A stretch of DNA of 64,000 bases, taken from an uncultured Clostridium sp. GTDB lineage: Bacteria > Bacillota_I > Bacilli_A > RF39 > UBA660. This document shows positions 25,228-29,300 of this stretch, piece after piece (position 1 is the stretch's first letter; each line of letters starts with the position of its first letter). A program made the translations under genes and the position numbers. Location: positions 10,159-74,158 of the forward strand of contig CAZOBH010000003.1 in NCBI GenBank assembly GCA_964578175.1. The letters are read 5' to 3'. Under the pieces are notes generated by a model. That model was not told where the DNA came from, did not search any database, and worked only from the letters and a program-made list of their open reading frames with translations.

Positions 25228-25349
25228 ACTATCACCACCATAATTATACAAAAATTAGCCTTATTTTCCAAGAAAATGTCAAATATTACTAATATTTTTA
25301 TTATATTTAAATAAATAATGCTATAATTATTATAATAGAGGGTGATTAA

Positions 25350-27089
25350 ATGGCTAGTAACAATGAGGCTCTAGTAATCAGTGCAGCAAATTTAGACGTA
25401 ATTGAAAGAAATTTAGGTAATCTTGCTAACAATGTAGGTCAAGTAAGCTCTAATATAGAACACGTTGATTCTAAAGTTAACAAAGTCACTGATTCAGTAA
25501 AAACTATTGAAGAAGAAATTAAAAATTTTATGGTTGAAATAAGAGGTAGTACGGTTGTTGCTAACGCAAAACAATCAATTACTTTAGACCAAGATGAGAT
25601 CAATAAACAATATGGTCATTATGATAATGTTAGAAGAAAAATAAATGGAATATTTCAAGCTACTGATATTAATTCAATAAAAAAATCAACAATTGAAAAT
25701 ATTAGTGAACAAGTTATAATTGATACTCCTAACTACTGGCTTGCTCCGGCATTAGTTGCTATTTGTGCTTGGTTTAATGATAATAAAGACTTAGCTAATA
25801 GAGCATTAAAAGAAGCAATGACAAGAGACGATGAAAAAACTAGTTTATTATTTTGTTTAATTCATTTAAGAGCTGGAAGAAATGATACCGCTCTTCGTTG
25901 GTTAAGAAGATATTTAGAAATGCAAGATCCAACTAAAATGGAAAATAAAATTGTAACTATAATTGATGCAATTACAAACGGTACATTTGATGTAGATGCT
26001 AGAACTATGTGTCTAGACAAAATAAATACATGGCTTCAAGAATTAAATAATCAACCTGAATATAGAAATATTCAAGTAGATAGATGGACAACTTGTTTAA
26101 ATAGTTGGATTAAAGAAACTGAACCACAAAACTTTTATCATTTAAAAAATTATACTAACCAACATGATCAAATTCAAAAGATATTAGCTGTTACTACTTC
26201 CGAAAGGAATATATTAGAAGAACTTAAAAATATTCTCAAAGAAGATAGTGGTCCAAAGATATCAAGAGAAGCTGAAATAGATAAAATTATTAATTTGTTA
26301 GTGTTCAACTATGAAGATGAGGAATTAGAACTTAGAAAAGATATTGCTAAAAATAAATTAATTGTTGAAGAAAATGGAAATGTTAATAAAGCATTAGAAA
26401 GATTTAAAGAAACCGAGTTTGCATTTCAAAAGAATACTGATTTCTATTCACAACTAACTAATATAGTTTTAGAGAACAAATCAGTAAAACCTACAGTTAA
26501 TACTAGAAAACTTGCATTTGCACTATCTAAAGATTGGATTCTAGAAGCATACAATAAGAACATTAATAATGATGAAAATAATAACTTAAATATAAATATT
26601 AAAATTGGTAATTGGAATGGTAATACAATAAACGGATCAAATGAAAAAGAATTAGTACAAGATCTACATAATCACATAAATAATGATACTAACCAAGATA
26701 TTTATGGAAATAAATTATTTGATACTAAAATGATGATTGCAACAGTTATTGGCGTAATACTTACTATTATTTGTTTTATTATTAAGCAACCTCTAATTGC
26801 TCTTGTTGTATTAATTGGTGTATTAATAGTAGATGGATACTTCTTATTCTTAAATTATACTGAAAGAGAAAATAAAATTAAGAAAAGAGAAGAAAGAAAG
26901 AAAAATGAAACTTTAATACTTATGAATACTATTGCAGAAGTAGTAGATTTTAGATTCCTATATAAAGATGGAAAAGATACAGAAAATGAAATTATAGCGT
27001 TTATAAATTCATTAGATTATAACAATTATGTTAAAGCTGAAAGAAATCAAAGAAATATTCAGGTAGGTGATTTAAATGCTAGAAGATAA
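25350..27089 (+). CDS. Gene A of the plus-strand cassette. Domains: N-terminal coiled coil, a ~350-aa cytoplasmic alpha-helical domain, a two-helix membrane hairpin (aa ~459-505), and a short basic C-terminal tail. No recognised family.
   Basis: 579 aa. No signal peptide. Hydrophobic hairpin MMIATVIGVILTIICFIIKQPLIALVVLIGVLIVDGYFLFL. AGAGGGTGA RBS. Confidence 0.55.
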   Translation: MASNNEALVISAANLDVIERNLGNLANNVGQVSSNIEHVDSKVNKVTDSVKTIEEEIKNFMVEIRGSTVVANAKQSITLDQDEINKQYGHYDNVRRKINGIFQATDINSIKKSTIENISEQVIIDTPNYWLAPALVAICAWFNDNKDLANRALKEAMTRDDEKTSLLFCLIHLRAGRNDTALRWLRRYLEMQDPTKMENKIVTIIDAITNGTFDVDARTMCLDKINTWLQELNNQPEYRNIQVDRWTTCLNSWIKETEPQNFYHLKNYTNQHDQIQKILAVTTSERNILEELKNILKEDSGPKISREAEIDKIINLLVFNYEDEELELRKDIAKNKLIVEENGNVNKALERFKETEFAFQKNTDFYSQLTNIVLENKSVKPTVNTRKLAFALSKDWILEAYNKNINNDENNNLNINIKIGNWNGNTINGSNEKELVQDLHNHINNDTNQDIYGNKLFDTKMMIATVIGVILTIICFIIKQPLIALVVLIGVLIVDGYFLFLNYTERENKIKKREERKKNETLILMNTIAEVVDFRFLYKDGKDTENEIIAFINSLDYNNYVKAERNQRNIQVGDLNARR

Positions 27090-27267
27090 TACAGATTTTT
27101 TAGAAAAGAAAACTGAGTTATTTGATCAAGTTGATCAAGAAAGAAAAATTAAAGAACAAGAAAATAGAAAAAGTATAAATCCTAATGATGAAAAGTTTAT
27201 TAATGCTTTACCAGATTGGGATTTACCACCACTTTATGAAGGAGTAAGGAGAGTGGTTAGAAGATGA
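27076..27267 (+). CDS. Gene B: small acidic/basic protein (63 aa), translationally coupled to gene A
   Basis: Overlaps gene A by 14 nt. GGTAGGTGA RBS. C-terminal DWDLPPLYEG motif. Confidence 0.45.
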   Translation: MLEDNTDFLEKKTELFDQVDQERKIKEQENRKSINPNDEKFINALPDWDLPPLYEGVRRVVRR

Positions 27268-27695
27268 CTTATTATGAATGGATTGATTATTTAGATAAGT
27301 TAAAACATAACGCTATAACCGATAATGATGTTAACAAAATTGATCAAGCCAATTTAACCTATACTGGTGATATTAAAATAAGATTTCTAAATCACATCGT
27401 AGATTTAATAAACTATAGACTTAATGCATCAGTAGATAACTTTGTTTTAAAATTAGACAGAGTTAAACAAGATCAAAATACTTTACTTTTAGAATTAGGA
27501 TATATTAAAAATGAAATGGTATTTGCAAAGAAATTAGCTTCAGTAAGACATTTTGATGAAAATACCAAAAACTCATTACTTCAAAATATACATAAGTTTG
27601 GTGAAGATATAAATGGTCAAATAAGAAATGCATTTATGAATGATACAAATCCAGAAATAGCAATGATCATAAATAATTTGGATTTAAATAGTTAG
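27264..27695 (+). CDS. Gene C: 143-aa helical protein of unknown function
   Basis: ATGA start/stop overlap with gene B. AAGGAGAG RBS. Confidence 0.5.
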   Translation: MTYYEWIDYLDKLKHNAITDNDVNKIDQANLTYTGDIKIRFLNHIVDLINYRLNASVDNFVLKLDRVKQDQNTLLLELGYIKNEMVFAKKLASVRHFDENTKNSLLQNIHKFGEDINGQIRNAFMNDTNPEIAMIINNLDLNS

Positions 27696-27703
27696 GAGGA
27701 TTT

Positions 27704-29275
27704 ATGAACTATAAAGAAACAAAAGAAACTTTAATAAAATACATATTGGCAAGAATTCCTTTTATAGGAATAGACACTATTGAAAAAACTAGAACTTTAA
27801 ATTTATTAAGAGAAATTAGTAAAGAAACTAATACTATGATTAAAGTTCATTCTATGTCTAATGGATTTACTAATATATTAACTGGAGAAGTATATAATAA
27901 CGATAAACTATTGATGGGTGCTTTAGATTATATAGCAAAAGAATTACAAACGAGTGAAAATCAAATATATATATTAAGTGATGTACAAGAATTAGACACA
28001 GAAAATGTTACATCCAGATACCTAGCAGATTTAACTACATTAGCTGAAGAAAAATCATCAATTATTATGGTTATTACAGCTAATCCTTTATGGGTATTCT
28101 TACAAAGACAAGGAATGGTAATAGATTTTGAATTACCTGATGAAGATGAAATATTTAATTTAATAATTGAAGAAATTAGACCATATCAAAATCAAATTAA
28201 AATTGAATGGGATAAAGACGACGTAAAAGAGATTGCAAATATATTAGTTGGTGTTAGTTCAATTGAAATTAAAAATGTAATAGCTACTCTACTTGCTAGA
28301 GGTGAATTATTAAAAGATGATAAAATTGAACTTAGATTTGCTAAAGATAGTTTATTTTCTAATATTAATGGATTAGAAAAAATTAATGTAGAAGATGACT
28401 TAGCATTTGGAGGACTTCAAAATCTTAAACAATGGTTAGATGATAAACAAAAATTATTAGTTCCCGAAAAAAGAGAAGAAATGAAAAAAAGAGGTATAAA
28501 ACCTCCACGTGGAATATTATTAATGGGTGTTCCTGGATGTGGAAAGAGTTTATCTTCTAAAGCAATAGCTCAAAGATGGAAAAGACCTTTATATAGACTA
28601 GACTTTGCAACTATTCAAGGTAGATATGTAGGACAAAGTGAACAACAATTAAAAGAAGCTTTTGAAACAGCAGAACATGTATCTCCATGTATATTATGGA
28701 TTGATGAAATTGAAAAAGGATTAGCTGCTGGATCAAGTGATTCATCTGGAGTAACTCAAAGATTAATAGGTCAATTTCTATTCTGGTTACAAGAATGTAA
28801 TAAAGATGTATTCGTAGTTGCCACTGCCAATAATGTTAATGAACTCCCTCCTGAATTATTAAGAAAAGGAAGATTTGATGAATTATTCTTTATAGATTTA
28901 CCTAACTCTACAGAAAGAAAAGAAATACTTGAATTATATTTAAATAAATATTTTGAATTCCCTGGAGATGATAATTTAATTGCTCAATTAGTTAAAATAA
29001 CAGAGAATTATACTGGATCTGATATAGAAGCAATTCTAAGAGATTTAGCATATCAAAACATAGCAGGACTTATTGAAGTAAATGCAAATACTGTAATAAA
29101 TGCATTTAATGGTTCTGTATCTATGTATAATACAAATAAAGAGAAAATTGAAAAAATTAGAAACTGGGCAAAAGATAGAACAATTAATGCATCTATCCCT
29201 GATCAAGTACAACCTCAAAACACACCAGTTCAAAGTGCACCAGTTACACCACAAGAACAAATTGAAGTATTATAA
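27704..29275 (+). CDS. Gene D: classic-clade AAA ATPase (katanin/Vps4/FtsH-like module) with a ~260-aa N-terminal extension
   Basis: KPPRGILLMGVPGCGKSLSSKAIA (Walker A), ILWIDEIE (Walker B), ATANNVNELPPELLRKGRFD (SRH / Arg finger). AGGAGGA RBS. Confidence 0.8.
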   Translation: MNYKETKETLIKYILARIPFIGIDTIEKTRTLNLLREISKETNTMIKVHSMSNGFTNILTGEVYNNDKLLMGALDYIAKELQTSENQIYILSDVQELDTENVTSRYLADLTTLAEEKSSIIMVITANPLWVFLQRQGMVIDFELPDEDEIFNLIIEEIRPYQNQIKIEWDKDDVKEIANILVGVSSIEIKNVIATLLARGELLKDDKIELRFAKDSLFSNINGLEKINVEDDLAFGGLQNLKQWLDDKQKLLVPEKREEMKKRGIKPPRGILLMGVPGCGKSLSSKAIAQRWKRPLYRLDFATIQGRYVGQSEQQLKEAFETAEHVSPCILWIDEIEKGLAAGSSDSSGVTQRLIGQFLFWLQECNKDVFVVATANNVNELPPELLRKGRFDELFFIDLPNSTERKEILELYLNKYFEFPGDDNLIAQLVKITENYTGSDIEAILRDLAYQNIAGLIEVNANTVINAFNGSVSMYNTNKEKIEKIRNWAKDRTINASIPDQVQPQNTPVQSAPVTPQEQIEVL

Positions 29276-29276
29276 A

Positions 29277-29300
29277 AAGCAACTTAGTTGCTTTTTTTAT
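29277..29300 (+). terminator. Terminator of the plus-strand cassette
   Basis: AAGCAAC-tta-GTTGCTT hairpin followed by TTTTTT. Confidence 0.6.

What the first reader, a model, noticed from the sequence alone, without database searches (positions are those of the whole stretch)
25350..29300. Compact, translationally coupled four-gene cassette on the plus strand: coiled-coil/membrane-hairpin protein, two small proteins and a katanin/Vps4-like AAA ATPase. Candidate undescribed membrane-associated ATPase system.
These are the only long plus-strand genes in a roughly 30-kb minus-strand housekeeping stretch. They sit between the divergently oriented fhs gene and a thioredoxin-like gene.

The four ORFs are packed with overlaps of 14 nt and 4 nt and an 8-nt gap. 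Each has a good Shine-Dalgarno sequence, and a clean intrinsic terminator follows the last one. This pattern indicates a single operon.

The composition is unusual. Gene A (579 aa) has no signal peptide. It has an N-terminal coiled coil, a large helical cytoplasmic domain, an internal two-helix membrane hairpin and a basic tail. Genes B (63 aa) and C (143 aa) are tiny helical proteins. Gene D is a classic-clade AAA ATPase whose P-loop (PPRGILLMGVPGCGKSLSSKAIA) most resembles the katanin/spastin/Vps4 'meiotic' clade, with an intact Walker B, SRH and Arg finger. It is preceded by a ~260-aa domain with AAA-like beta-alpha periodicity but no P-loop.

An AAA unfoldase or remodeller paired with an in/out membrane-hairpin scaffold plus small helical partners recalls the logic of ESCRT-III/Vps4 or PspA-type membrane remodelling. 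It also recalls NTPase-based conflict systems. No component matches a family I can name.
Basis: partly seen in the sequence, partly recalled or inferred. Interest (0 to 1): 0.8.

Follow-up and report, generated by a model that had tools for sequence, protein, structure and literature searches.

The report
Membrane-tethered AAA ATPase gene cassette
This is a real four-gene operon for a membrane-anchored scaffold, a floppy adaptor peptide, a small helical protein and a protein-unfolding ATPase; the same cassette, usually with a fifth gene, moves between bacterial phyla on plasmids and a phage satellite, and only its ATPase belongs to a described family.

Summary
Four tightly packed plus-strand ORFs (A 579 aa, B 63 aa, C 143 aa, D 523 aa) lie between an extended -10 promoter-like site and an intrinsic terminator.

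The order A-B-C-D recurs in about 75 loci from uncultured Bacilli, Clostridia, Streptococcus, Veillonella, Bifidobacterium, Fusobacterium and Proteobacteria. These include a Streptococcus satellite prophage and small plasmids. Outside the window's clade a fifth gene, E, is always present.

- A is a cytoplasmic helical, TPR-like platform held in the membrane by a two-helix hairpin.
- B is not a helical protein. It is a variable linker carrying a nearly invariant C-terminal peptide (LPxW[DS]hxPP...VRR), and in some relatives it is fused to A.
- C is a generic helical bundle.
- D is a classical-clade AAA+ unfoldase with a degenerate, P-loop-less N-terminal AAA-like domain. It is nearest to Cdc48/VAT, not katanin/Vps4. 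It is homologous over its full length to ATPases in contractile-injection-system clusters and Ycf35/DUF2997 clusters.

Neither A nor C has an ESCRT-III/PspA fold. A, B, C and E match no Pfam, NCBIfam, PADLOC or PHROG family.

Best reading: a mobile, membrane-tethered AAA+ remodelling module, probably conflict-related, that has become fixed beside fhs in this lineage. Its function is untested.

The parts
25319..25327 (+). Extended -10 promoter-like element TGcTATAAT upstream of gene A
   Evidence: Read directly from the sequence. The consensus scan lists weaker nearby sites at 25276-25304 and 25306-25333. Not tested experimentally.
25350..27089 (+). Gene A (579 aa): membrane-anchored scaffold. 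Cytoplasmic long helices and a TPR-like helical platform, a two-helix membrane hairpin, then a cytoplasmic C-terminal helix.
25365..25658 (+). A residues 6-103: N-terminal long helices (coiled-coil-like); the first 40 residues are low confidence
   Evidence: AF2 helices 6-29 and 36-103. Conserved block ELNKKYGHYDxVRRKINGL.
25683..26585 (+). A residues 112-412: helical-repeat (TPR-like) cytoplasmic domain with invariant PNYWLAP, RDDEKTSLLF and WLxRYLxMQD motifs
26730..26864 (+). A residues about 461-505: two hydrophobic helices separated by about 3 residues (KQP), followed by a strongly basic stretch (RENKIKKREERKK). This gives an in-out-in hairpin.
   Evidence: Sequence. AF2 helices 459-477 and 481-553. 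Topology is inferred from the lack of a signal peptide and the positive-inside rule.
27076..27267 (+). Gene B (63 aa): variable, charged linker plus a conserved C-terminal docking-type peptide
   Evidence: ORF. The B-position ORF is 43-394 aa long in about 70 loci. It is fused in frame to the A C-terminus in P0044/P0051 and L013/L022.
27208..27264 (+). B residues 45-63, LPDWDLPPLYEGVRRVVRR: the conserved short linear motif (consensus GLPxW[DS]hxPPxhhVRRKxx)
   Evidence: The motif occurs once per locus, always in B, 7-15 residues before the stop. Proteobacterial versions read FPEWDLLPA / LPAWDLLPA.
27264..27695 (+). Gene C (143 aa): compact helical-bundle accessory protein
27704..29275 (+). Gene D (523 aa): AAA+ ATPase with a degenerate N-terminal AAA-like domain and an active classical-clade AAA domain
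   Evidence: Pfam AAA at residues 271-398, E 6e-31. PDB best hit VAT/p97. Invariant K281, D334/E335, N376, R387/R390 and Y308-V309-G310. phrog_8638 matched over full length at 1e-94.
27704..28408 (+). D residues 1-235: P-loop-less N-domain (ARIPFIxIxTxExxR in place of Walker A; 'GMxIxxxLPxExE' in register with the RFD...LP...ER segment of the AAA fold)
   Evidence: Alignment A6. hhalign of the N-half against the AAA half gives E 9e-4 in register but only 23% probability. No PDB hit by HMM.
28514..28897 (+). D residues 271-398: AAA core (Walker A GVPGCGKS, pore loop YVG, Walker B ILWIDEIEK, sensor 1 ATAN, Arg fingers RKGRFD)
29198..29272 (+). D residues about 499-523: P/Q-rich tail ending in the acidic-hydrophobic ...QIEVL-COOH
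   Evidence: Close relatives end in IETLY, LEVL, AETLI, LDVI, LDLI or VEII. Clades that have gene E end in (K/R)TRKVL(V/L) instead.
29274..29296 (+). Intrinsic-terminator-like hairpin plus T-run, overlapping the D stop codon

Best explanation
The four genes form one operon that builds a membrane-tethered AAA+ protein-remodelling machine.

Shown:
- A is an integral-membrane anchor. Its large N-terminal part (long helices plus a TPR-like repeat platform) and its C-terminal helix lie on the same side of a two-helix hairpin.
- D is a classical-clade AAA+ ATPase with every catalytic residue and the pore loop invariant, behind a degenerate AAA-like N-domain.
- B is a variable linker ending in a nearly invariant peptide, and that peptide can be fused to A's C-terminus.
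- C is a helical bundle.
- The genes travel together across at least five phyla, usually with a fifth gene, E.

Inferred:
- A D hexamer is recruited to the cytoplasmic face of the membrane on A. Recruitment uses short peptide motifs: B's W-D-h-x-P-P/basic tail, and D's own C-terminal tail. TPR grooves typically bind such peptides.
- D then threads or unfolds a protein client, or a component of the complex itself, and so switches A or the client.
- The module is autonomous and horizontally mobile: it is cargo of a satellite prophage, sits on small plasmids beside IS, integrase and toxin-antitoxin genes, and has a patchy distribution. Its most likely biological role is therefore a conflict system (anti-phage or anti-mobile-element, abortive-infection or exclusion type) acting at the membrane.
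- In the window's lineage it has been inherited vertically beside fhs. It has lost E and the D tail that co-occurs with E, so it may have been reduced or domesticated.

Rough split of biological role: conflict/defence about 0.4; membrane-protein quality control or remodelling about 0.3; export/loading about 0.15; other about 0.15.
For: - Operon anatomy.
- Co-occurrence of A-B-C-D in about 75 loci, with D about 50% identical where A is only about 30%.
- Models and fold searches for A and C.
- D motifs invariant. N-domain aligns in register with the AAA fold.
- Full-length homology of D to an ATPase inside a Treponema contractile-injection cluster (35% identity, 1e-80) and to a Bacillus megaplasmid ATPase next to DUF1257/DUF2997.
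- Pvc15 of such injection systems has a deficient D1, and it handles cargo that carries disordered N-terminal signals (PMC11495950).
- B motif occurs once per locus, always near the C-terminus, and natural A-B fusions exist.
- D tail (K/R)TRKVL is present in 44/44 loci with E and absent in 28/28 loci without E.
- Mobility: Javan368 satellite; 13 Streptococcus genomes of three species share its cassette end at 93-97% nucleotide identity while the rest of the satellite is deleted; Komagataeibacter and Comamonas plasmids.
- Some defence neighbours: type I R-M, AbiLi, PDC-S01, mads.
Against: - No experiment exists, and no subunit contacts were modelled because no multimer tool was available.
- PADLOC v2 has no model for A, B, C or E.
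- Defence-gene enrichment among neighbours is modest, roughly 8-10 of 126 (my count from the partial table), with no formal background.
- In the window's own clade the cassette sits in a housekeeping context (fhs, gatCAB) with flank-like GC and conserved synteny down to about 45% A identity. That is unusual for a defence island.
- The commonest neighbours in Clostridia are Zn-ribbon membrane proteins rather than defence genes.
- No hit in IMG/VR with clade-specific patterns.
- The AAA-fold assignment of D's N-domain rests on a weak profile match (23% probability).
Confidence: 0.45

Rival explanations
1. A housekeeping envelope system. A membrane-tethered unfoldase extracts, quality-controls or remodels membrane proteins or the membrane itself, following Cdc48/Msp1/FtsH or PspA-Vps4 logic. 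Candidate clients are the N-terminal zinc-ribbon, single-pass membrane proteins encoded next to it in Clostridia.
For: - Long vertical inheritance and synteny with fhs in the window's clade, with no compositional anomaly.
- Zn_Ribbon_1 is found in 17 of 126 nearest neighbours. B itself carries an N-terminal zinc ribbon in Clostridia.
- In one locus (L069) A is followed by a vWA protein and an FtsZl1/Tubulin_2 protein. That pairing was predicted to act in membrane remodelling (PMC2875224).
Against: - No ESCRT-III/PspA fold or Pfam signal in A or C.
- The distribution is patchy and mobile, including a satellite prophage and small plasmids.
- The window's own flanks hold no zinc-ribbon membrane genes.
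- Zinc-ribbon surface proteins may simply mark variable genomic regions.
Confidence: 0.25
2. A protein loading or export device. D unfolds a small cargo protein that carries a disordered N-terminal leader (gene E in other clades), and an oligomer of A's hairpins forms the conduit or docking site. This would be analogous to eCIS ATPases loading signal-tagged payloads.
For: - A D homologue sits inside a contractile-injection cluster. Pvc15 recognises disordered N-terminal signals.
- E has a conserved N-terminus (MPRPML), a Q-rich linker and a small Cys/His domain.
- Six Lachnospiraceae loci add a HerA/FtsK-like ATPase and a Zn-ribbon 3-TM protein directly upstream of A.
Against: - A has only a 2-TM hairpin with an external loop of about 3 residues.
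- No injection-system structural genes or secretion components lie in the window or in the cassette loci.
- The window's clade lacks E altogether.
Confidence: 0.12
3. A two-part ATP-dependent protease, with D as unfoldase and E as peptidase. A, B and C would act as membrane adaptors. The window would then carry a crippled remnant.
For: - E has invariant Cys104, His113, His124 and Glu151.
- D's C-terminal tail motif co-occurs perfectly with E, as docking tails do in other unfoldase-peptidase pairs.
- D matches the IetA model of the IetAS ATPase-protease defence pair across its AAA region.
Against: - E matches no peptidase or any other family in Pfam, PADLOC, PHROGs or PDB sequences.
- The spacing of its Cys and His residues fits no peptidase clan that I know.
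- The E-less cassette is conserved and intact in at least 28 loci, so it is not a decaying remnant.
Confidence: 0.08
4. Sub-hypothesis for gene B only. The conserved W-D-h-x-P-P peptide is a ribosome-arrest or translational-coupling leader that tunes expression of C and D, rather than a docking motif.
For: - Only the last 20 or so residues are conserved, they contain a PP, and they lie 7-15 codons before a stop that overlaps the C start (ATGA).
- Known arrest peptides (SecM, MifM, VemP; my own knowledge) share this layout.
Against: - The motif is equally conserved when fused to the end of A, and in loci where B and C do not overlap.
- The basic tail after the PP is also conserved.
- B has no membrane or secretion segment that could relieve an arrest.
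Confidence: 0.1

Closest known systems
'Inactive classical AAA + classical AAA' ATPases linked to PspA / TM-Snf7 (Ravi et al. 2024, mSystems, PMC11237479)
   Same: The ATPase has the same two-part architecture. It is paired with coiled-coil, alpha-helical or membrane-anchored partners, and ATP-dependent action at the membrane is predicted.
   Different: No PspA or Snf7 gene lies in the window or in any cassette locus. A and C do not have that fold. I could not fetch the reference protein (AEY64320) to test orthology with D.
eCIS ATPases (Pvc15/Afp15-type) of contractile injection systems
   Same: D is 35% identical over its full length to the ATPase inside the Treponema succinifaciens pTRESU01 injection cluster. 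Pvc15 has a deficient D1 and an active D2 with pore loops, and acts on disordered signal peptides.
   Different: No sheath, tube, baseplate or VgrG genes lie near the cassette. Pvc15 also has an extra N-domain. Orthology between the Treponema ATPase and Pvc15 was not tested.
Cdc48/p97/VAT
   Same: These give the best sequence matches for D's AAA domain (VAT D2 110.7 bits; NCBIfam CDC48 1.2e-40). They are classical-clade substrate-threading unfoldases recruited by short linear motifs on adaptors.
   Different: D has no double-psi-barrel N-domain and only one active ring. It scores 139.6 bits against a family cut-off of 802.65.
ESCRT-III/Vps4 and CdvABC
   Same: The logic is similar: a membrane-bound partner plus an AAA+ ATPase recruited by a C-terminal peptide after a flexible linker (MIM-MIT).
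   Different: There is no ESCRT-III fold and no MIT or Vps4_C domain. D scores 96 bits against a CdvC cut-off of 650.
IetAS (Gao 2020) anti-phage pair
   Same: D hits the IetA models at 2e-32. IetAS is likewise a mobile AAA+-based module.
   Different: The match covers only the generic AAA core (IetA positions 107-353 of 374). No IetS subtilase is nearby. NCBIfam IteA scores 88.8 bits against a cut-off of 510.
TPR co-chaperones and class II T3SS chaperones (HOP TPR1, Sti1, CHIP; AcrH, IpgC, SycD)
   Different: The similarity is fold-level only (7-13% identity). Pfam TPR matches are not significant. No binding was tested, and A is membrane-anchored.
vWA/FtsZl1 operons (Makarova & Koonin 2010, PMC2875224)
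   Same: One A homologue (L069) is followed by a vWA protein and a Tubulin_2/FtsZl1 protein. Those operons contain many unannotated membrane proteins and were predicted to remodel membranes.
   Different: This is a single locus, and the window has an AAA+ ATPase instead.

Membership tests
Classical-clade AAA+ unfoldase | Walker A GxxGxGK[ST], Walker B hhhhDE, sensor-1 Asn, two SRH arginines, aromatic-hydrophobic-Gly pore loop | tested here: met
   GVPGCGKS (K281), ILWIDE (D334/E335), ATAN (N376), RKGRFD (R387/R390) and YVG (308-310) are all invariant in 24 diverse D sequences. Pfam AAA E 6e-31.
Katanin/spastin/Vps4 'meiotic' clade | Closest sequence affinity to that clade, an MIT domain at the N-terminus, and a Vps4_C element | tested here: not met
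   The top 60 PDB hits are VAT, p97, Cdc48, NVL, AFG2 and Rix7. NCBIfam ranks CDC48 > PAN > CdvC. No MIT or Vps4_C hit in Pfam.
ESCRT-III/Vps4 or PspA-type remodelling system | A subunit with the ESCRT-III/PspA fold (Snf7 or PspA_IM30) | tested here: not met
'Inactive AAA + active AAA' ATPases (Ravi et al. 2024) | N-terminal domain that lacks the nucleotide-binding motifs | tested here: met
   There is no GK[ST] or hhhhDE in residues 1-235. ARIPFIxIxTxExxR occupies the P-loop position.
'Inactive AAA + active AAA' ATPases (Ravi et al. 2024) | N-terminal domain with an AAA fold | tested here: inconclusive
   hhalign of the N-half against the AAA half gives E 9e-4, in register from beta4 to the lid, but only 23% probability. 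The HMM finds nothing in the PDB.
'Inactive AAA + active AAA' ATPases (Ravi et al. 2024) | Adjacent PspA or membrane-anchored Snf7 gene | tested here: not met
   None in the window or in about 80 loci.
Cdc48/p97/VAT family | Cdc48-type N-domain plus two AAA rings, scoring above the family cut-off | tested here: not met
   TIGR01243 scores 139.6 bits against a cut-off of 802.65. No CDC48_N or CDC48_2 hit.
IetAS defence system | IetA ATPase together with the IetS S8 protease | tested here: not met
   The IetA match is confined to the AAA core. NF042959 scores 88.8 bits against a cut-off of 510. No peptidase_S8 appears among neighbours.
Extracellular contractile injection system (ATPase component) | ATPase encoded within a sheath/tube/baseplate gene cluster | tested here: not met
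   Homology to such an ATPase exists, but no injection-system structural genes lie in the window or the cassette loci.
TPR-domain protein (A, central domain) | Tandem helix-turn-helix repeats recognised by TPR profiles | tested here: inconclusive
Any catalogued anti-phage system (PADLOC-DB v2.0) | Model hits to the system-specific (non-ATPase) components | tested here: not met
   No significant hit for A, B, C or E from the window, Javan368 or Komagataeibacter. DefenseFinder and newer PADLOC releases were not available.

The most novel reading that the evidence does not exclude
A-B-C-D(-E) is a previously undescribed, multi-phylum, self-contained conflict system. In this reading a TPR-like membrane-hairpin protein senses an invader or acts as the membrane effector. 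A degenerate-D1 AAA+ unfoldase, wired to it by short peptide motifs, arms or fires it. One gut Bacilli lineage has fixed a reduced four-gene version as a core operon.
Probability: 0.35. Interest if true: 0.8.

Novelty: new variant of a known kind. Interest (0 to 1): 0.64.

Why it matters
Four of the five protein families in this module (A, B, C, E) have no annotation in Pfam, NCBIfam, PADLOC or PHROGs. Yet the module is conserved in order and sequence across Firmicutes, Actinobacteria, Fusobacteria and Proteobacteria, and it rides on a phage satellite and on plasmids.

If it is a defence or exclusion system, it would add a membrane-tethered, unfoldase-driven mechanism to bacterial immunity. 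If it is a membrane-protein remodelling machine, it would be a bacterial counterpart of Cdc48/Msp1-type extraction that is built from different parts.

Either way, three features give experiments precise handles: the invariant B peptide, the two alternative D tails, and the perfect co-occurrence of the D tail with E. Cultured carriers exist (Streptococcus oralis, S. mitis and S. sanguinis; Komagataeibacter; Comamonas).

Tried and rejected
- **Katanin/Vps4 clade for D.** Rejected.
- **IetAS, TRIP13, Cdc48, PAN, FtsH membership.** Only generic AAA-core matches, all below the family cut-offs.
- **HMM search of D's N-domain against PDB sequences.** No hit even at E up to 10.
- **IMG/VR scan with A patterns.** No relatives found. 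The patterns were specific to the Bacilli clade, so this is a weak negative.
- **BFVD fold search with A.** Nothing significant.
- **Extra proteins carrying the B motif ('clients') in about 90 loci.** None found; the motif occurs only in B.
- **Positions in A, C or D that change together with the atypical B tails of L018 and L027-30.** No charge-compensating signal.
- **E against Pfam, PADLOC, PHROGs and PDB sequences.** Nothing.
- **Structure prediction with locus-derived C sequences.** I used database hits instead.
- **AFDB Foldseek.** Unavailable.
- **Literature searches.** Searches for Ycf46, defence-system descriptions and DUF1257/DUF2997 found no description of this cassette.
- **Ycf46 link.** The idea that D is a Ycf46 relative rests on my memory plus the DUF1257(Ycf35)/DUF2997 neighbours of a Bacillus homologue. 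It was not tested directly.

Full report
**1. The observation**

The window contains four plus-strand ORFs at exactly the stated places: A 25350-27089 (579 aa), B 27076-27267 (63 aa), C 27264-27695 (143 aa) and D 27704-29275 (523 aa).

Reading the junctions confirms a 14-nt A/B overlap, a 4-nt ATGA B/C overlap and an 8-nt C-D gap. Each start is preceded by a purine-rich Shine-Dalgarno-like sequence. A hairpin plus T-run at 29274-29296 overlaps the D stop. An extended -10 (TGcTATAAT, 25319-25327) lies upstream of A.

Between about 4.3 and 33.1 kb these are the only plus-strand ORFs of at least 150 aa. fhs is divergent upstream and a weak thioredoxin-like membrane protein is convergent downstream. 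GC content (25-28%) matches the flanks.

**2. Are the genes real and linked?**

Protein A has 349 or more close database relatives. A profile of 25 of them finds 828 clusters at 50% identity, 435 of them at E below 1e-30, nearly all about 570 aa long.

A scan of one genome per species returned 80 loci. tblastn with the four window proteins shows D 0.6-1.7 kb downstream of A in about 75 of 83 loci. Seven of the eight exceptions end within 1.3 kb of A.

Between A and D there is always one ORF of variable length (B position) and one of 139-171 aa (C position). D stays about 50% identical over residues 5-497 where A has dropped to about 30% and C to about 20%.

**3. Distribution and mobility**

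The closest relatives are uncultured low-GC gut and rumen Bacilli; their records are titled Bacilli, Mollicutes/Tenericutes or Erysipelotrichaceae bacterium. In these the cassette sits beside fhs and gatCAB in conserved synteny down to about 45% A identity.

A second, larger clade covers Lachnospiraceae, Ruminococcaceae, Clostridium, Streptococcus oralis/mitis/sanguinis, Veillonella, Mitsuokella and Bifidobacterium.

tblastn against annotated collections adds further carriers:
- Streptococcus satellite phage Javan368, where the cassette fills the right end of a 14.3-kb integrase/replication element.
- Two small Komagataeibacter plasmids, where it lies next to an IS3 transposase, an integrase, RepA and a RelE toxin-antitoxin pair.
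- A Comamonas megaplasmid.
- A chromosome-sized Fusobacterium record.

Thirteen Streptococcus genomes of three species share the Javan368 cassette end at 93-97% nucleotide identity. Several retain only the last 200-500 nt of the integrase gene, so the satellite has decayed around a retained cassette (truncated integrase).

Among 126 nearest-neighbour proteins in the second clade, I count roughly 8-10 matching defence models (type I R-M, AbiLi, PDC-S01, mads). This count comes from the partial table of that call. The enrichment is modest and I did not calibrate it against a background.

**4. A fifth gene**

Every locus outside the window's clade has a fifth gene, E, of about 160 aa. It lies downstream of D in Firmicutes and Fusobacterium and upstream of A in Proteobacteria.

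E has a conserved N-terminus (MPRPML), a Q-rich linker, a basic helix (LRxxRSxxY...LDxG) and a small domain with invariant Cys104, His113, His124 and Glu151. It matches nothing in Pfam, PADLOC, PHROGs or PDB sequences. E is absent from the 64-kb window and from all 28 loci of its clade.

D's C-terminal tail tracks E perfectly. (K/R)TRKVL(V/L) is present in 44 of 44 loci with E and in none of 28 without it. This is one phylogenetic split, so it amounts to a single event, but it suggests that the tail and E work together.

In the window's near relatives D instead ends in a P/Q/T-rich linker plus an acidic-hydrophobic terminus: QIEVL in the window, and IETLY, LEVL, AETLI, LDVI, LDLI or VEII elsewhere.

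**5. The parts**

*Protein A.* The AlphaFold2 model (pLDDT 79.5) shows helices 6-29 and 36-103, a helical-repeat domain at 112-412, a beta hairpin at 415-426, and helices 459-477 and 481-553. The last two begin as hydrophobic segments separated by KQP and are followed by RENKIKKREERKK. Together with the lack of a signal peptide, this implies an in-out-in hairpin with both large parts cytoplasmic. That topology is inference.

Across loci it is 43-394 aa long, compositionally biased and unalignable except for its last 20 or so residues, consensus GLPxW[DS]hxPPxhhVRRKxx. That B is disordered is my inference from composition and length variation; no tool predicted it.

A regular-expression scan of all six frames of about 85 sequences finds the motif once per locus, always in B, 7-15 residues before the stop. 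Proteobacterial versions read FPEWDLLPA and LPAWDLLPA.

In Clostridia, B carries a CxxC...CxxC zinc ribbon at about residue 21. In one subclade (P0044, P0051, L013, L022) the B tail is fused in frame to the C-terminus of A and no separate B gene exists. This is the behaviour of a tethered docking peptide.

*Protein D.* Pfam AAA covers residues 271-398 (E 6e-31), with a weak AAA_lid_3 match. The best PDB matches are VAT, p97, Cdc48, NVL, AFG2 and Rix7. NCBIfam ranks CDC48 > PAN > CdvC > FtsH > IteA, all far below their cut-offs.

In 24 diverse sequences the Walker A lysine, Walker B DE, sensor-1 Asn, both arginine fingers and the pore-loop YVG are invariant. The motor is therefore expected to hydrolyse ATP and thread substrate.

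The N-terminal 235 residues have no P-loop. A profile of them aligns in register with the beta4-to-lid part of the AAA half (hhalign E 9e-4, but only 23% probability). An HMM of the same residues finds nothing in the PDB.

Over its full length D matches:
- phrog_8638 (1e-94);
- an ATPase inside a contractile-injection-system cluster on a Treponema plasmid (35% identity, 1e-80);
- a Bacillus licheniformis megaplasmid ATPase next to DUF1257 (Ycf35) and DUF2997 genes (31% identity, 8e-66).

The injection-system ATPase Pvc15 is described as having a deficient D1 and an active D2 that handles cargo with disordered N-terminal signals (PMC11495950). [quoted passage not shown] This cassette may be one of those unnamed 'others'.

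**6. Context clues outside the window**

In Clostridia the commonest neighbours are same-strand proteins with an N-terminal zinc ribbon, one TM segment and varied extracellular domains. Zn_Ribbon_1 occurs in 17 of 126 neighbours, YARHG in 6 and DZR in 4.

Six Lachnospiraceae loci place a Zn-ribbon 3-TM protein and an 890-aa HerA/FtsK-like ATPase directly upstream of A.

One Ruminococcus locus (L069) keeps A but replaces B-C-D with a vWA protein, a Tubulin_2/FtsZl1 protein and an unknown protein. That pairing was earlier predicted to remodel membranes (PMC2875224). A therefore looks like a membrane module that can serve different NTPase engines.

**7. Mechanism**

What is shown:
- A membrane anchor with a TPR-like cytoplasmic platform.
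- A catalytically intact, pore-loop-bearing AAA+ motor with a degenerate first domain.
- A linker protein whose only conserved feature is a C-terminal peptide that can be fused to the anchor.
- A helical accessory subunit.
- Strict co-inheritance of the four genes.

What I infer:
- D hexamers are held at the inner face of the membrane on A through peptide-in-groove contacts. These would involve B's PxWxLxP/basic tail and D's own tail. TPR grooves bind EEVD-COOH tails in Hsp70/90 co-chaperones and PxLxxP in T3SS chaperones (my own knowledge).
- D then unfolds a client or a subunit to switch the complex.
- Which partner binds which peptide is untested.

For the biological role I favour a conflict system (about 0.4) because of the satellite, plasmid, IS and integrase contexts and the patchy multi-phylum spread. 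The fhs-linked, E-less, vertically inherited version in this window argues that here it may be a domesticated or housekeeping membrane-quality-control machine (about 0.3). Export/loading and ATP-dependent protease readings remain possible but less supported.

**8. Comparison with known systems and novelty**

The cassette works like an adaptor-recruited Cdc48/Vps4-type remodeller, but it fails the membership tests for ESCRT-III/Vps4, Cdc48, IetAS and eCIS (see the table of tests). Only the ATPase family has been noticed before.

A, B, C and E are unannotated in the four profile libraries I could search. I found no paper describing the cassette. I rate it a new variant of a known kind: an AAA+ motor with a membrane adaptor. 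There is a real chance (about 0.35) that it is an undescribed defence system.

**9. Limits**

- There was no multimer modelling.
- The AFDB library was unavailable.
- DefenseFinder and HHpred were not available.
- Neighbour enrichment has no formal background.
- The taxonomy of the source organism is known only from the titles of related records.
- The Ycf46 connection comes from memory and from neighbouring genes, not from a direct comparison.

Noticed in passing
L083:12090-12572; L084 (Javan368):13775-14257; L085:1106-1576; L086:8489-8974: A fifth conserved gene, E (about 160 aa), accompanies the cassette in every clade except the window's. It has an MPRPML N-terminus, a Q-rich linker and a small domain with invariant Cys/His/His/Glu. 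No family match in any library.
   Followed up: partly
L034:3878-7974 (also L035, L036, L040, L050, L072): An extended variant. A Zn-ribbon protein, a Zn-ribbon 3-TM protein (313 aa) and an 891-aa HerA/FtsK-like (DUF87) ATPase abut the start of A on the same strand. Extra large unknown genes lie between D and E.
   Followed up: partly
L069:7959-17394: An A homologue is followed by a vWA protein (686 aa), a Tubulin_2/FtsZl1 protein (1175 aa) and an unknown 636-aa protein instead of B-C-D. A therefore appears to pair with a different NTPase engine here.
   Followed up: partly
Flanks of L031-L079 (e.g. L072:12810-14499; L064:881-7393; L073:4967-7850): Genes for proteins with an N-terminal zinc ribbon, one TM segment and an extracellular domain (YARHG, Big_2, SH3_3, amidase, M48, beta-lactamase) cluster on the same strand around the cassette: 17 of 126 nearest neighbours. 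No background frequency was computed.
   Followed up: partly
L055-L083 (Streptococcus loci) compared with L084: Thirteen S. oralis, S. mitis and S. sanguinis genomes keep only the cassette-bearing 4.6-5.4 kb right end of satellite Javan368 (93-97% nucleotide identity), sometimes with the last 200-500 nt of its integrase gene. The replication and regulation module is deleted.
   Followed up: yes
L088:6348-8503 and L089:2718-8617: Distant D homologues in a Treponema plasmid (inside a contractile-injection cluster) and a Bacillus licheniformis megaplasmid (next to DUF1257/Ycf35 and DUF2997) each have a '4Fe-4S cluster-binding domain' gene upstream. It is immediately upstream in Treponema and about 3.4 kb upstream in Bacillus. 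Cyanobacteria link DUF2997, ycf35 and a ferredoxin.
   Followed up: no
window:22991-23515 (-): A 174-aa ORF with no Pfam hit sits between gatC and fhs. ORFs of similar size occupy the same position in the closest related loci (L004-L006).
   Followed up: no
window:30241-31882 (-): Two overlapping minus-strand ORFs. The 340-aa product has N-terminal TM segments, a Lys/Glu-rich low-complexity stretch (weak Phage_Gp23 hit, E 1.5e-4) and a C-terminal globular part. The 243-aa ORF probably starts at an internal ATG.
   Followed up: no
window:31927-33057 (-): A CobW/G3E-family GTPase (cobW 1e-48, CobW_C 6e-20), the type usually regarded as a metal chaperone, lies downstream of the thioredoxin-like membrane protein.
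   Followed up: no
window:29198-29272 and D tails in L002-L010, L019: D proteins of the window's near relatives end in a P/Q/T-rich linker plus an acidic-hydrophobic C-terminus (QIEVL, IETLY, LEVL, AETLI, LDVI...). This layout recalls the linker-plus-EEVD tails that TPR co-chaperones bind. Deeper members of the clade lack any tail.
   Followed up: partly
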